Shown here: positions 1 through 3,679 of the stretch, piece after piece
How the letters are laid out: each line of letters starts with the position of its first letter
How positions within the stretch are numbered: position 1 is the stretch's first letter
Virus record (IMG/VR): IMGVR_UViG_2574180358_000004
Strand: one strand, 5' to 3'
DNA length: 4,005 nucleotides
Source of the DNA: a virus
Lineage: Duplodnaviria; Heunggongvirae; Uroviricota; Caudoviricetes
Notes under the pieces: generated by a model
The model's input: only the letters and a program-made list of their open reading frames with translations
What the model was told of the DNA's origin: nothing
Databases searched by the model: none
Position numbers and translations under genes: made by a program

Positions 1-260
1 TAAGTTGGAGTCATTACCCGGAAAGTAAACAAGAATACTCCCATTGACTTATATCAATTAATCAACTTTTTATAAGCTATCACTAACTTATTGTGTATAG
101 CTGAAAAGTCAGAGACAAGTTCACCATCTGCATTATTTCTTAAGTTAATAGTTTATTGCTAACTTAATTTATGTATCGACTATTGATAGCCATCTTAAAG
201 TTACAATATCCCTCTGCATTATTTTTCATCACAAATAATATATCTATTGCACGACACTCA

Positions 261-315: not shown

Positions 316-345
316 TTGACCTTTTAATCGTTCAGGCTTATAGTT
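316..345 (+). promoter_or_regulatory. sigma70-type promoter candidate directing rightward transcription into the c4-like RNA and icd-ant
   Basis: TTGACC (316-321), 18-bp spacer, TATAGT (340-345); sits in the AT-rich ORF-free region just upstream of the structured RNA. Pattern match only. Confidence 0.35.
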
Positions 346-373
346 TCGCCGTCGTAGCAAATTCTGCGACCGG

Positions 374-396
374 GTTTAGCAGCCTGAATGATTGTG
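374..396 (+). repeat. Upstream copy of antisense-RNA target boxes (a1/b1-like): TTAGCAG and GATTGTG
   Basis: GTTTAGCAGC (374-383) and GATTGTG (390-396) recur at 543-552 and 574-580. Both are exactly complementary to CACAATC (502-508) and CTGCTAA (515-521) in the structured region, in the order expected for antiparallel pairing. Confidence 0.45.
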
Positions 397-439
397 CGGA
401 CAGCCGCAGATATCCGATATTGCGGTATTTTTGTGTCCG

Positions 440-535
440 TAAAACCGCGTTACGCCCAAATTATGGTGGGGCGTGATGGGGAGGCTTCGGCCTGCTGGTT
501 TCACAATCGCCAGTCTGCTAACCCCGTCACGTCCT
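440..535 (+). ncRNA. c4: c4-type antisense RNA candidate (immunity-I repressor RNA); boundaries approximate
   Basis: GC-rich structured stretch between the promoter region and icd with no convincing ORF. Predicted hairpins: 448-457/469-478 (10 bp including G-U pairs); 482-485/490-493 closed by a UUCG tetraloop; 495-498/511-514 with CACAATC in the loop; alternative closing stem 475-481/522-528. The two 7-nt elements complementary to the duplicated flanking boxes lie in a loop and a junction. Position upstream of icd-ant matches P1 immI organisation. Confidence 0.45.
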
Positions 536-542
536 GCCACCT

Positions 543-583
543 GTTTAGCAGCGGGTAGCAGGTTGTTAAACCTGATTGTGAGG
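543..583 (+). promoter_or_regulatory. Downstream target boxes (a2/b2-like) overlapping the icd Shine-Dalgarno; probable site of antisense translational repression
   Basis: GTTTAGCAGC (543-552) and GATTGTGAGG (574-583). The GAGG at 580-583 is the Shine-Dalgarno for the ATG at 592, so pairing with the RNA element CACAATC would occlude the ribosome-binding site. Confidence 0.45.
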
Positions 584-591
584 CCGTAACT

Positions 592-813
592 ATGGTTAAT
601 GCCAATCCTTGCGCACGCCAAGAATTCATCTGGCGTTTCTATTCCTGTAAAAAACACCACTATCACTTCGTCATCGCAGCAACAGAAGACGAAGCACGCT
701 CTCAATTGCCTGATGGTCCCTGCATTTTTACTGCCCGTTTTTCAACTAACTCGCGCAATTCACTTAGTTACTGGAACCTCCCCTTCTCTGCCGACGTTCA
801 GGGGGATTTATGA
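592..813 (+). CDS. icd: Small icd-like protein (73 aa), translationally coupled to ant
   Basis: ATG at 592 preceded by GAGG with 8-nt spacing. Its TGA stop (811-813) overlaps the ant ATG (810-812) as ATGA. Length and position match my recollection of P1 icd; no sequence-level confirmation is possible here. The alternative frame 599-835 cannot be fully excluded. Confidence 0.5.
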   Translation: MVNANPCARQEFIWRFYSCKKHHYHFVIAATEDEARSQLPDGPCIFTARFSTNSRNSLSYWNLPFSADVQGDL

Positions 814-1754
814 AAAAACCTCTCGTCACCCGTAATGAAATAGCCGAAGCGATCGCCCTGCATACAACCTGTATGCCGACACGGGAGATCCCCGGCGCAA
901 TTGCCAACTATTTCATGATAACCAGACGTTTTTATACCCGAACAGATAAGGCTGTGATCAACAAGCTACTGATAGCCGAGATCAGGGATTATTTGATTGA
1001 ACAAGGACGTCTACGTTACGCAACAGTGGCAGCAGAAATGAGAAAGGAGGCACATAGAATGACCGGTAATAATTTGAATGTTGAAAAACCAGCACCTGTT
1101 GCTTCAGCTACGCCATCACCAGCTGTGAATGTTATCTCCAACACTGGAGACACAATCGACAGCCAGACACTGTTAAAGATGGTCAATGAAGCTCGTAAGT
1201 TATGTGGGGAACCAGAGGTTCGGAACAACAAATTCATCGAAAAAATACTCGACGAATTAGAAGGTGAGGACGGTTACACAAAAAGTGCAACCGTGCCGCC
1301 AGGTGGCGGTACGCCTATGGTTGTCATAACCATGACCTACAAACAAGCCCTGCGAGTCGCCGCGCGCGAGTCAAAAGCGGTCCGCCGTTCGCTGATCGAC
1401 AAACTGGAAGAGTTACAGCAGGCAAACTCCCCTACCCCATCGATCCCCCAGACATTACCAGAAGCCCTACGCCTGGCTGCCGAGTTAGCAGAACAGAAAA
1501 TGCAGTTGGAACAACAGCTGGTGGCCGCAGCCCCTAAAGTCGATTTTGCCGACCGGGTATCAGTGGCCAATGGAATCCTGATCGGGAACTTTGCAAAGGT
1601 CGTTGGACTTAAGCAAAACGCCCTTTTCTCATGGTTGCGCCAGAACGGCATTCTCATGGCTTTTGGAGCGCGCAAAAACGTACCGCGCCAACAGTACATC
1701 AACGCCGGGTATTTCAGGTGCTGGATGATGAAAATGGCTACCAGATACGGCTGA
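810..1754 (+). CDS. ant: Antirepressor Ant (Ant1 form) with KilAC/ANT-type C-terminal domain; reading frame breaks near 1712-1715 so the ORF as written ends prematurely at 1754
   Basis: 314-aa ORF. ATG at 810 preceded by GGGGG (801-805). Residues ~200-300 (LPEALRLAAELAEQK...PKVDFADRV...NGILIGNFAKVVGL...WLRQNGIL...RKNVPRQQYINAGYF) align closely with the C-terminal half of the downstream KilA ORF. After GYF the frame yields RCWMMKMATRYG-stop, while the conserved continuation lies in the -1 frame. Confidence 0.8.
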   Translation: MKKPLVTRNEIAEAIALHTTCMPTREIPGAIANYFMITRRFYTRTDKAVINKLLIAEIRDYLIEQGRLRYATVAAEMRKEAHRMTGNNLNVEKPAPVASATPSPAVNVISNTGDTIDSQTLLKMVNEARKLCGEPEVRNNKFIEKILDELEGEDGYTKSATVPPGGGTPMVVITMTYKQALRVAARESKAVRRSLIDKLEELQQANSPTPSIPQTLPEALRLAAELAEQKMQLEQQLVAAAPKVDFADRVSVANGILIGNFAKVVGLKQNALFSWLRQNGILMAFGARKNVPRQQYINAGYFRCWMMKMATRYG

Positions 1755-1840
1755 CGCCCCAATTAACGGGTAAAGGCCAGCAGTGGTTAACTCGCAAGCT
1801 ACTTGATGCTGGTTTGTTAAAACCAGTAGCAATAGGTTAA
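1715..1840 (+). other. ant: Displaced C-terminal segment of ant in the -1 frame (QVLDDENGYQIRLTPQLTGKGQQWLTRKLLDAGLLKPVAIG); ant is either a frameshifted pseudogene or carries a 1-bp sequencing error
   Basis: The frame-2 translation from 1715 aligns with the KilA C-terminus (…RISFTTRITGKGQQWLMKRLLDAGVLVPVAATR). Restoring one T in the run at 1712-1714 (TATTTCAG to TATTTTCAG) gives the contiguous reading GYF-QVLDDENGY…. Confidence 0.6.
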
Positions 1841-1852
1841 CAAAAGAAAAAA

Positions 1853-1877
1853 CCTGCCAGCTAACTGGCAGGTTTCT
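1853..1877 (+). terminator. Rho-independent terminator after ant
   Basis: Stem CCTGCCAG (1853-1860), loop CTAA, stem CTGGCAGG (1865-1872), followed by TTTCT; preceded by an A-tract (AAAAAA), so it could act in both directions. Confidence 0.6.
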
Positions 1878-2003: not shown

Positions 2004-2804
2004 ATGCAACAAACATTCAATGCGGATATGAATATATCAAACCTTCATCAAAATGTCGATCCTTCCACCACTCTGCCCGTTATTTGTGGTGTTGAAATTA
2101 CGACCGACCGCGCTGGCCGTTACAACCTTAATGCTCTACACAGAGCGAGCGGACTCGGTGCCCATAAAGCGCCAGCTCAATGGCTAAGAACGCTGTCAGC
2201 CAAACAGCTCATCGAAGAGCTGGAAAAAGAAACTATGCAGAATTGCATAGTTTCGTTCGAAGGCCGTGGCGGCGGCACTTTTGCCCATGAATTGCTCGCA
2301 GTGGAGTACGCTGGTTGGATTTCTCCCGCGTTTCGGCTGAAGGTAAACCAGACATTTATCGACTATCGCGCTGGAAGATTACAACCTGCTATTCCGAAGA
2401 GCCTCCCAGAAGCTCTCCGTTTGGCTGCTGACCTGGCAGAGCAAAAGCAACGGCTGGAGCAAAAAATGCTGATGGATGCACCTAAAGTCGAATTCGCCGA
2501 ACGCGTTGCTACCGCCAGCGGGGTTCTAATCGGCAACTATGCCAAAGTGCTCGGCCTGGGCCAAAACTATCTCTTCACCTGGTTGCGTGATAACGGAATT
2601 CTGATCGCAACCGGTGAACGCAGGAACGTCCCCAAACAAGAATACATATCCCGTGGGTATTTCACCCTTAAAGAAACCGTGATCGATACAAGCAATGGAA
2701 GCAGGATTTCTTTCACGACTCGTATAACCGGCAAAGGTCAGCAGTGGCTGATGAAGCGATTGCTTGATGCTGGTGTGCTGGTACCTGTCGCGGCAACGCG
2801 CTAA
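2004..2804 (+). CDS. kilA: KilA-like protein: N-terminal KilA-N DNA-binding domain plus C-terminal Ant-like (KilAC) domain
   Basis: 266-aa ORF. ATG at 2004 preceded by GGAGA (1995-1999). The N-terminal region (…YNLNALHRASGLGAHKAPAQWLRT…FEGRGGGTFAHELLAVEYAGWISPAFRLKV…) fits the KilA-N fold pattern. The C-terminal ~130 aa is paralogous to the ant C-terminus. Position after ant and before a repL-like gene matches P1 order. Confidence 0.8.
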   Translation: MQQTFNADMNISNLHQNVDPSTTLPVICGVEITTDRAGRYNLNALHRASGLGAHKAPAQWLRTLSAKQLIEELEKETMQNCIVSFEGRGGGTFAHELLAVEYAGWISPAFRLKVNQTFIDYRAGRLQPAIPKSLPEALRLAADLAEQKQRLEQKMLMDAPKVEFAERVATASGVLIGNYAKVLGLGQNYLFTWLRDNGILIATGERRNVPKQEYISRGYFTLKETVIDTSNGSRISFTTRITGKGQQWLMKRLLDAGVLVPVAATR

Positions 2805-2833: not shown

Positions 2834-3679
2834 ATGCTGGCTAAAGTCACTTTCCTGAGCTGTATAACGATGAGCGATTTTACTTTTTCTGGCTATGAAT
2901 TGGCCTTCTTTGTAACACACTCCGGTCTATCCCGTAGCGCCGGGCATATCCTGTCGCAATGTGCAAATCTCGCGGCAACAACCAGTGAATACTTCATTCA
3001 CAAGCCCCACCGCCTGATCGCGGCAGAAACTGGTTATAGCCAATCAACCGTCGTTCGTGCATTCCGTGAAGCTGTAAACAAAGGAATTCTGTCAGTAGAG
3101 ATTGTTATCGGCGATCACCGTGAACGTCGCGCTAACCTGTACCGGTTTACACCATCCTTTTTGGCCTTCGCACAACAAGCCAAAAATGCGCTGATTGAAA
3201 GCAAATTAAAGATCTCTTCAGCGGCAACCAAGGTTAAAGCTGTTCTCGCTAAGACATTGGCTTTATTTGATTTTTTATCCACACCCCCATATCAAAATGA
3301 TACCCCCTCCCCCTGTCAGGATGACGTGGCAATAAAGAATAAGAAGTCACAAGTTAAAAAAACAAAAAGATCAGTTTCCGGCGGTGCCGGAACGACCAGA
3401 CTCAAAAAATTGACTTCATGGATCGCTGAGGCAAAAGCAAAGGCTGACAATCTGCGGTTATCCAAAAAACGCGCTCAAAAACATGAGTTCAAGCAGAAAG
3501 TAGAGGCGGCTGCGCGGAAATATGCTTACCTGAAGAACAAGCGTTCGCCTGATATTGGCGGGATATCAAACTTCGATAATCTACCGCATTGCATGACGGT
3601 AAACGAAGCTCTTAATGCGGTTTTAGCCAATAATAAAGATAACGAAAAATGGGGTATACCGGCAGGATTCAGGGGGTGA
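2834..3679 (+). CDS. repL: RepL-like lytic replication protein (winged-helix/HTH N-terminal region, lysine-rich basic C-terminal region)
   Basis: 281-aa ORF directly downstream of kilA, same strand, 30-nt gap. HTH-like segment IAAETGYSQSTVVRAFREAVNKGIL; basic tail KKSQVKKTKRS…KKRAQKHEFKQK. Assignment rests on gene order and length as recalled for P1, not on verified homology. No convincing Shine-Dalgarno before ATG 2834; an alternative in-frame ATG lies at 2870. Confidence 0.55.
   Translation: MLAKVTFLSCITMSDFTFSGYELAFFVTHSGLSRSAGHILSQCANLAATTSEYFIHKPHRLIAAETGYSQSTVVRAFREAVNKGILSVEIVIGDHRERRANLYRFTPSFLAFAQQAKNALIESKLKISSAATKVKAVLAKTLALFDFLSTPPYQNDTPSPCQDDVAIKNKKSQVKKTKRSVSGGAGTTRLKKLTSWIAEAKAKADNLRLSKKRAQKHEFKQKVEAAARKYAYLKNKRSPDIGGISNFDNLPHCMTVNEALNAVLANNKDNEKWGIPAGFRG

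What the first reader, a model, noticed from the sequence alone, without database searches (positions are those of the whole stretch)
1707..1840. ant carries a -1 frameshift at a T-run that displaces its conserved last ~40 codons
In the ORF frame the protein reads …QQYINAGYF then RCWMMKMATRYG-stop (ends 1754). The -1 frame from 1715 reads QVLDDENGYQIRLTPQLTGKGQQWLTRKLLDAGLLKPVAIG-stop (1840), which aligns with the KilA C-terminus. One extra T in TATTTCAG (1710-1717) would restore a single ORF of ~343 codons. This is either a genuine inactivating or attenuating mutation in the antirepressor, which would bias the element toward stable lysogeny or plasmid maintenance, or a homopolymer sequencing error. 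A programmed frameshift is unlikely because there is no obvious slippery heptamer with a downstream structure.
Basis: seen in the sequence. Interest (0 to 1): 0.55.

Follow-up and report, generated by a model that had tools for sequence, protein, structure and literature searches.

The report
13-bp deletion breaks P1-type ant
The antirepressor gene (ant) of this P1-like phage-plasmid is broken by a private 13-base deletion, not a one-base slip, which cuts off the conserved last third of its C-terminal domain; this is an ordinary one-off loss-of-function mutation in a well-known, dispensable phage gene.

Summary
The ant1 frame (810 onward) reads ...NAGYF, then 12 junk residues and a stop at 1752-1754. 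The conserved C-terminus continues in the -1 frame to 1840. The cause was misread. Compared with P1, P7-like phages and every related locus examined, the window lacks 13 bp (CGGTGAAAGAAGT) between A1716 and G1717. That removes the conserved codons T-V-K-E plus one base. It is not a T-run indel, so a homopolymer sequencing error is excluded.

The allele is private. It is absent from 105 fetched relatives, from about 670 matching records in each of the plasmid and complete E. coli genome collections, and from three collection-wide junction scans. It is reproducible: the window is an exact piece of NCBI contig JAEOJZ010000096.1, and the same gene is in a separately named ENA metagenome scaffold and in Logan.

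Both Ant1 (314 instead of 347 aa) and Ant2 (231 instead of 264 aa) lose about the last third of the KilAC/ANT domain (from profile position 72-73 of 108). There is no slippery heptamer, no downstream structure, and no conservation of the two-frame layout.

Verdict: a recent, sporadic inactivating deletion. Other P1-like elements carry different ant lesions. Interest is low.

The parts
810..1716 (+). Intact 5' part of ant1 (codons 1-302 plus one base), in the original frame. The start ATG overlaps the icd stop codon (ATGA, 810-813).
   Evidence: It is 99.3% identical, without gaps, to ant of NZ_OP927715 and NZ_CP057105. Pfam ANT profile positions 1-72 map to residues 234-303. It matches PHROG 63 'anti-repressor Ant'.
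1059..1061 (+). Internal in-frame ATG of ant2, preceded by AAGGAGG. Ant2 shares the truncated C-terminus (231 aa instead of 264).
   Evidence: The position corresponds to the annotated ant2 start of P1 NC_005856.
1716..1717 (+). Deletion junction. Relative to all relatives, 13 bp (CGGTGAAAGAAGT) are missing between A1716 and G1717. There is no microhomology at the junction itself. The lost segment begins one base before the first of two GGTG repeats lying 12 bp apart in the parent.
   Evidence: The junction is found only in the source contig among 106 full-length loci. It is absent from genome, viral and metagenome contig scans.
1717..1754 (+). Out-of-frame read-through (the R codon AGG spans the junction at 1716-1718, then CWMMKMATRYG) and the premature TGA stop at 1752-1754.
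1717..1840 (+). Displaced remnant, now in the -1 frame, that encodes the conserved C-terminal 40 residues of the KilAC domain (VLDDENGYQIRLTPQLTGKGQQWLTRKLLDAGLLKPVAIG) plus the original stop codon.
   Evidence: The DNA is identical in 89 of 105 relatives.
1712..1718 (+). U_UUC_AGG, created by the deletion. It is the only place where a P-site -1 slip (UUC to UUU), ahead of the rare AGG codon, would rejoin the conserved residues on both sides. It is listed as a caveat, not as a functional element.
   Evidence: for the sequence logic. The precedent for AGG-pause slippage is PMC7022156. It was not tested here.
592..813 (+). icd, upstream in the same immI operon and intact (73 aa).
   Evidence: It matches NCBIfam NF033153 phage_ICD_like.
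338..544 (+). c4 regulatory RNA region: the a1/b1 target sites (338-390) and the C4 antisense RNA (459-544) that represses icd and ant translation. Both are intact.
   Evidence: Rfam RF03163 at 54.6 bits and RF01695 at 69.6 bits, both above their gathering thresholds.

Best explanation
The window is the immI-kilA-repL segment of a P1-like phage-plasmid. It holds the C4 RNA, icd, ant1/ant2, kilA and repL. Its ant gene carries a genuine, recent, lineage-private 13-bp deletion inside the KilAC (ANT) domain. The deletion removes the conserved residues T-V-K-E and shifts the frame. Both overlapping products, Ant1 and Ant2, therefore end after 12 unrelated residues and lack about the last third of the domain, which is conserved even in the paralogue KilA. 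The most likely consequence, which is inferred, is loss of antirepressor activity. The element would then be unable to antagonise the C1 repressor through the immI route. Lytic replication functions (kilA, repL) and C4/Icd are untouched. It is a sporadic pseudogenising mutation in a dispensable gene, not a regulatory device.
For: Shown by tool results. (1) A single 13-bp gap against P1 and the nearest plasmids. The only other indel in 4 kb is a 1-base length difference in the intergenic stretch just after ant. (2) 0 of 105 other loci carry the junction and all 105 have the undeleted site. All 79 viral loci that span the region keep one frame, reading GYFTVKEV(V/G)LDDE(N/D)G. (3) No plasmid or complete E. 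coli genome record exceeds 96.3% identity over 1560-1900, and every top hit spans 354 nt against 341 in the query. (4) The junction 30-mer is absent from three collection-wide scans. (5) The allele is reproducible. The window is an exact substring of NCBI GCA_019365755.1 contig JAEOJZ010000096.1. The identical gene lies on ENA ERZ28666514 scaffold_2979, which is 4408 bp against 4452 bp. The protein is also recorded in Logan. (6) The deletion is the only private change in ant, because all 7 substitutions against the nearest plasmid are shared polymorphisms. The displaced tail is undecayed, which points to a recent event. (7) The truncated product matches Pfam ANT profile positions 1-72 of 108 at 73 bits, while intact Ant matches 1-106 at 106 bits. 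(8) The lost tail is 61% identical to the KilA tail and nearly invariant among relatives, so it is under purifying selection. From the literature: Ant1/Ant2 act as a complex antirepressor held off by C4 RNA (PMC8546580); ant1 and ant2 scored non-essential for P1 lytic growth (PMC10695390); ant1 is interrupted by an mcr-1 insertion in a P7-like plasmid (PMC5786510).
Against: No read-level data were available, so the reality of the deletion rests on agreement between assemblies that probably derive from one sample. Loss of function is inferred from domain truncation and conservation, not measured. No solved structure exists. Both AlphaFold models were of low confidence across the KilAC domain, so the structural role of the lost segment is not established. 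A trace of frame-restoring slippage at U_UUC_AGG cannot be excluded.
Confidence: 0.85

Rival explanations
1. Assembly or sequencing artefact: the sampled DNA has an intact 347-codon ant, and the 13-bp gap was introduced during sequencing or assembly.
For: The source is a short (4.4 kb) contig from what looks like a metagenome-derived assembly. No other record anywhere carries the junction. The read data could not be inspected.
Against: A 13-bp loss in non-repetitive sequence is not a homopolymer-type error, and the adjacent run is only TTT. The same gene sequence appears in two differently built contigs of 4452 and 4408 bp and in a third source. The rest of the 4 kb has no comparable indels against its nearest relatives.
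Confidence: 0.07
2. Leaky or programmed -1 ribosomal frameshifting: ribosomes slip from UUC to UUU at U_UUC_AGG (1712-1718) while pausing on the rare AGG codon. This would produce some 343-aa Ant, so the allele would be attenuated rather than null.
For: UUC to UUU re-pairing is cognate for tRNA-Phe. AGG lies directly in the A site and occurs only once elsewhere in the ant frame, at 984. Pausing on AGG drove 5% slippage that suppressed an rpoB frameshift in E. coli, without other signals (PMC7022156).
Against: The site was created by the deletion and exists in no relative, so it cannot be an evolved signal. There is no X_XXY_YYZ heptamer and no stable downstream structure (-19.4 kcal/mol, z = 0.15). 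The published precedent is a +1 shift in a very highly expressed gene, whereas ant is normally repressed. Even a shifted product would lack four residues (TVKEV replaced by Q) of a segment conserved in Ant and KilA.
Confidence: 0.04
3. The truncated Ant1/Ant2 keep some activity, or act as a dominant-negative, because the N-terminal regions and two thirds of the KilAC domain remain.
For: 302 of 347 native residues are retained, and the remaining part still scores 73 bits against Pfam ANT. Which part of Ant contacts C1 or the partner subunit was not found in the accessible literature.
Against: The lost 45 residues are the most conserved stretch shared by Ant and KilA and are nearly invariant in 79 loci. 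Truncating a domain mid-way and adding a 12-residue junk tail commonly destabilises a protein.
Confidence: 0.1

Closest known systems
ant1/ant2 antirepressor genes of the immI operon of phage P1 (NC_005856, P1_gp046 and P1_gp047) and of P7 and P1-like phage-plasmids
   Same: The gene order is the same: C1 operator, a1/b1 sites, C4 RNA, icd, ant1/ant2, hairpin, Op53, kilA, repL. The icd/ant ATGA overlap and the internal ant2 start are present. DNA identity is 93.5% to P1 and up to 98.7% to P1-like plasmids.
   Different: 13 bp are missing inside the KilAC domain. The products are 314 and 231 aa instead of 347 and 264 aa, and they lack the segment from ANT profile position 72-73 to 108.
Other natural ant lesions in P1-like elements
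   Same: They are sporadic, independent disruptions of the same dispensable gene. Examples are the mcr-1/ISApl1 insertion in ant1 of pMCR_SCKP-LL83 (PMC5786510), a nonsense codon at residue 209 in L063, a nonsense codon at residue 65 in L078, and an extra A after the ATG in L053.
   Different: Each lesion is different. None shares this 13-bp deletion, and L078 and L053 affect Ant1 only.
KilA of P1 (window 2004-2804), the paralogue carrying the same KilAC domain
   Same: It has the same C-terminal domain. Its tail is 61% identical to the displaced Ant tail.
   Different: KilA is intact here and has a KilA-N domain at its N-terminus.
Intrinsic suppression of frameshift mutations by P-site slippage before a rare AGG codon (E. 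coli rpoB CCC-AGG-C; yeast Ty1 CUU-AGG-C)
   Same: A slippery P-site codon is followed directly by AGG (PMC7022156).
   Different: Those are +1 shifts, whereas -1 would be needed here. There is no experimental evidence for this site, and the gene is expressed at a low level.

Membership tests
P1-type Ant1/Ant2 antirepressor (immI operon) | Location downstream of C4 RNA and icd, with the ant start overlapping the icd stop codon | tested here: met
   Rfam C4 at 459-544 and c4-a1b1 at 338-390. icd lies at 592-813 and ant begins with ATG at 810. This matches the P1 annotation.
P1-type Ant1/Ant2 antirepressor (immI operon) | Nested in-frame ant2 start with its own ribosome-binding site | tested here: met
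   ATG at 1059 preceded by AAGGAGG, aligned to the P1 ant2 start.
P1-type Ant1/Ant2 antirepressor (immI operon) | Complete C-terminal KilAC/ANT domain (PF03374) in one reading frame | tested here: not met
   Only profile positions 1-72 of 108 are in frame. Positions 72-106 lie in the -1 frame. Intact relatives cover positions 1-106.
P1-type Ant1/Ant2 antirepressor (immI operon) | Binding and inactivation of the C1 repressor | not testable with these tools
   This needs a protein interaction or prophage induction assay.
Programmed -1 ribosomal frameshift | Slippery heptamer X_XXY_YYZ in the overlap of the two frames | tested here: not met
   None between 1631 and 1754.
Programmed -1 ribosomal frameshift | Stimulatory downstream RNA structure | tested here: not met
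   Folding 1719-1800 gives -19.4 kcal/mol against a shuffle mean of -19.85, z = 0.15.
Programmed -1 ribosomal frameshift | Two-frame arrangement conserved in orthologues | tested here: not met
   0 of 105 relatives have it. All 79 viral loci spanning the site are in a single frame.
Homopolymer sequencing error | Gain or loss of one or two bases within a long mononucleotide run, not reproducible between assemblies | tested here: not met
   The lesion is 13 bp of mixed sequence next to a run of only TTT. The allele is identical in the NCBI and ENA contigs.
Sporadic pseudogene (recent loss-of-function allele) | Disrupting lesion private to one lineage, intact orthologues, and no secondary decay | tested here: met
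   The junction is private. It is the only private change in the gene. The tail is identical to most relatives.

The most novel reading that the evidence does not exclude
The deletion accidentally created U_UUC_AGG. A ribosome pause on the rare AGG codon might let tRNA-Phe slip back one base and produce a small amount of a 343-aa, four-residue-shorter Ant. The allele would then be a self-suppressing, attenuated antirepressor rather than a null, in effect a naturally occurring 'savior indel' that tunes induction of a phage-plasmid.
Probability: 0.03. Interest if true: 0.35.

Novelty: already known. Interest (0 to 1): 0.1.

Why it matters
It matters little beyond correct annotation. The gene should be flagged as a pseudogene (a frameshifted ant), not as two ORFs, a recoding site or a sequencing error. 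For this particular element it predicts loss of the Ant route for inactivating the C1 repressor, which may make the plasmid-prophage harder to derepress. Together with the private IS1 insertion about 240 bp upstream of the immI operator, it fits the familiar picture of P1-like phage-plasmids accumulating lesions in dispensable genes. It opens no new question.

Tried and rejected
1. A one-base T-run indel or homopolymer error was rejected by alignment, which shows a 13-bp gap.

2. The short junction-centred megablast searches did not discriminate. The tool joined the two 30-nt halves across the 13 bp (73-nt spans), so the '100% covered' rows are undeleted alleles. I relied instead.

3. Structure of the KilAC domain. 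There is no PDB relative. The single-sequence AlphaFold model of KilA had mean pLDDT 35.8. The model of intact Ant from an 11-sequence alignment had mean pLDDT 48.7, and about 35-45 across the KilAC domain. Both predict strand-strand-helix for the lost tail, but they are too unreliable to use, so no fold search was run.

4. The homologue search returned only near-identical Ant proteins among its best 120 hits. This confirmed that 345-347 aa is the norm but gave no diversity for modelling.

5. Literature look-ups for JAEOJZ and SAMN15422830 found nothing. Heinrich et al. 1994 on immI suppressor mutations (PMC196329) is not held.

6. A repeat-mediated deletion was considered. GGTG repeats lie 12 bp apart in the parent, but slippage between them would remove 12 bp in frame, not the 13 bp observed, so the mechanism of the deletion is unresolved.

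7. Independent translation of the -1 ORF from ATG 1631 was considered and rejected. There is no Shine-Dalgarno sequence upstream, and the first 28 residues would be out-of-frame junk.

Full report
**What the window is.** The 4005-base window is the immunity-I / lytic-replicon segment of a P1-like phage-plasmid.
- Rfam finds the a1/b1 target sites (338-390) and the C4 antisense RNA (459-544) above their gathering scores.
- The ORFs are icd (592-813), ant (from 810), kilA (2004-2804; KilA-N plus ANT domains) and repL (2834-3679).
- Two matches to the C1 operator consensus lie at 261-277 and 1918-1934. By position they correspond to P1's Oc4 (formerly Op51) and OrepL (formerly Op53).
- The DNA is 93.5% identical to P1 over icd-ant. 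It is up to 98.7% identical to P1-like plasmids of Salmonella, E. fergusonii and E. coli over the whole window.
- The window is an exact substring (positions 57-4061) of NCBI contig JAEOJZ010000096.1 of assembly GCA_019365755.1, which is 4452 bp long.

**Checking the observation.**
- Frame 0 from 810 reads ...QQYINAGYF, then RCWMMKMATRYG, then a TGA stop at 1752-1754.
- The -1 frame read from 1715 gives QVLDDENGYQIRLTPQLTGKGQQWLTRKLLDAGLLKPVAIG, with its stop ending at 1840.
- The displaced tail is truly the KilAC C-terminus. It matches KilA of the same window (23/38 identical, E = 4e-15) and Pfam ANT profile positions 72-106. The frame-0 product covers only positions 1-72 of 108.

**What the lesion really is.** The window was aligned with P1 and with MH422554, and then with its two closest plasmids.
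- These alignments show one 13-bp gap. The relatives read GGGTATTTCA-CGGTGAAAGAAGT-GGTGCTGG, which encodes G Y F T V K E V V L. The window reads GGGTATTTCA-GGTGCTGG.
- The junction lies between A1716 and G1717.
It does not describe what happened, because the wild-type protein has 347 residues.
- The neighbouring 'T-run' is only three bases long.
- The junction has no microhomology. GGTG repeats 12 bp apart in the parent would predict a 12-bp in-frame loss, so the mutational mechanism is unresolved.
- Over the rest of the 4 kb the window differs from its nearest relatives by about 40 substitutions and by only a 1-base length difference in the intergenic stretch just after ant. It is not an indel-prone sequence.

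**How common the allele is.**
- Among 665 plasmid records and 677 complete E. coli genome records matching 1560-1900, none exceeds 96.3% identity. All top hits span 354 nt against 341 nt in the query, so they are identical apart from the 13 bp.
- The 30-mer across the junction has no exact match in the genome, viral or metagenome contig collections.
- Of 105 other loci fetched (80 IMG/VR contigs, 20 contigs carrying the identical KilA or Icd protein, and 5 annotated phage and plasmid records), all have the undeleted site and none has the junction.
- All 79 viral loci that span the region keep the domain in one frame, with exactly 83 codons between the PKVDFADR and GKGQQWL motifs.
It is not fulfilled.

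**Is it real DNA or an artefact?**
- I could not see reads.
- The exact 314-aa product is recorded on three contigs from three sources: NCBI, ENA and Logan.
- One of them is a differently built scaffold, ENA ERZ28666514 'ZHAN20-1_SAMN15422830_METAG-scaffold_2979' (4408 bp). Its ant sequence is identical base for base.
- A 13-bp loss in mixed sequence that reappears in separately built contigs is not a typical sequencing or assembly error. I put the artefact reading at about 7%.
- The three records probably derive from one sample, so this counts as one biological observation.

**Age and selection.**
- All seven substitutions that separate the window's ant from the nearest plasmid allele are polymorphisms shared with 10 to 98 other loci.
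- The 124 nt downstream of the junction are identical in 89 of 105 relatives.
- The deletion is therefore the only private change in the gene, and nothing has decayed behind it. That is the signature of a recent event.

**Consequence (inferred).**
- Ant1 and Ant2 share their C-terminus, so both are truncated: 314 against 347 aa, and 231 against 264 aa.
- They lose T-V-K-E plus the last 40 residues. This stretch is nearly invariant among Ant proteins and strongly conserved in the paralogue KilA.
- P1 literature describes Ant1/Ant2 as a complex that antagonises the C1 repressor and is kept off by C4 RNA (PMC8546580).
- A CRISPRi screen scored ant1 and ant2 non-essential for P1 lytic growth (PMC10695390).
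- The most likely outcome is loss of the immI antirepressor route, with everything else left intact. A hairpin (1848-1877) and kilA's own C1-controlled promoter region follow ant, so no polar effect is expected.
- I could not establish the structural role of the lost segment. There is no PDB relative, and both AlphaFold attempts were of low confidence.

**Recoding.**
- There is no X_XXY_YYZ heptamer in the overlap of the two frames.
- The RNA downstream folds no better than shuffled sequence (z = 0.15).
- The two-frame layout exists in no relative. Programmed frameshifting is therefore excluded.
- One caveat remains. The deletion itself created U_UUC_AGG (1712-1718). A P-site tRNA-Phe could re-pair one base back, and the A-site codon is the rare AGG.
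- Pausing on AGG sufficed for 5% slippage that suppressed an rpoB frameshift in E. coli (PMC7022156). That was a +1 shift in a very highly expressed gene.
- Here, any shifted product would still lack four conserved residues. I give a functionally meaningful leak about 3-4%.

**Context.** Other P1-like elements carry their own, different ant lesions.
- L063 has a nonsense codon at residue 209, which affects both Ant1 and Ant2.
- L078 has a nonsense codon at residue 65, which affects Ant1 only.
- L053 has an extra A directly after the ATG, which also affects Ant1 only.
- A published P7-like plasmid has an mcr-1/ISApl1 insertion in ant1 (PMC5786510).
- That is roughly 2-4% of the loci sampled. 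Sporadic ant inactivation is a known and unsurprising phenomenon.

**Verdict.** The molecular description is wrong: the lesion is a 13-bp deletion, not a missing T, and not a homopolymer error. It is an ordinary private pseudogenising mutation in a well-characterised, dispensable phage gene. Interest is 0.1 and the novelty rating is 'already known'.

Noticed in passing
window 1-18 (L006 1-74): The left edge of the window is the terminal part of IS1, 100% identical to IS1 copies in more than 5000 plasmids. Homology to P1-like plasmids starts at window 19. 29 other loci holding the adjacent P1-side sequence continue with P1-type DNA instead, so this IS1 junction is also private. It sits about 240 bp upstream of the C1 operator at 261-277, between the divergent upstream gene and the c4 promoter region. 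It probably also explains why the contig ends there.
   Followed up: partly
L006 4214-4369 (just beyond the window's right end): A Hok/Gef-type toxin ORF (MKQQKAMLIALIVICLTVIV...) follows the small ORFs after repL. Equivalent ORFs in relatives hit Pfam HOK_GEF. This is another repeated module that may explain the other contig end.
   Followed up: no
L063 (IMGVR_UViG_2695420521_000002), ant codon 209: An independent nonsense codon (P-S-I becomes P-stop-I) truncates both Ant1 and Ant2 before the KilAC domain in a 99-kb P1-like contig.
   Followed up: partly
L078 (IMGVR_UViG_2609460060_000003) ant codon 65; L053 directly after the ant ATG: L078 has CAA changed to TAA at codon 65. L053 has an extra A in the A-run after the ATG. 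Both lesions would remove Ant1 but leave the nested Ant2 ORF intact. The L053 case could be a homopolymer error.
   Followed up: partly
P0016-P0019 and P0093 (418-420 aa); L074: Several database proteins named 'Icd-like' are 418-420 aa long and align to Ant over 96% of the query, so they look like icd-ant fusion ORFs. L074 has a one-G deletion just before the icd stop codon that fuses an upstream frame to ant, giving 414 aa. The ATGA overlap region seems prone to such changes or errors.
   Followed up: no
L093 and L095, between icd and kilA: Some elements with the identical KilA protein carry a different antirepressor architecture, ORF6N plus ANT (called products of 265 aa and 470 aa), instead of the 344-347 aa Ant. 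This indicates swapping of modules among antirepressor alleles.
   Followed up: no
window 1270-1330 (ant codons about 154-172): The central part of Ant is a variable cassette with in-frame indels between P1 (EFYTKSAKSHGTRAGRSFEV) and this lineage (EDGYTKSATVPPGGGTPMVV), and a third variant occurs in other relatives. This accounts for the 344-349 aa length range of intact alleles.
   Followed up: no
window 1848-1877: A 13-bp-stem GC-rich hairpin lies directly after the original ant stop codon. The scan scores it as terminator-like only on the minus strand. On the plus strand its T-tract is short. It may act as a bidirectional terminator between ant and the kilA promoter region.
   Followed up: no
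window 2834 and 2870 (repL start): Gene callers disagree on the repL start. Relatives give 281 aa (equivalent to ATG 2834) or 269 aa, which would correspond to a start 36 nt downstream.
   Followed up: no
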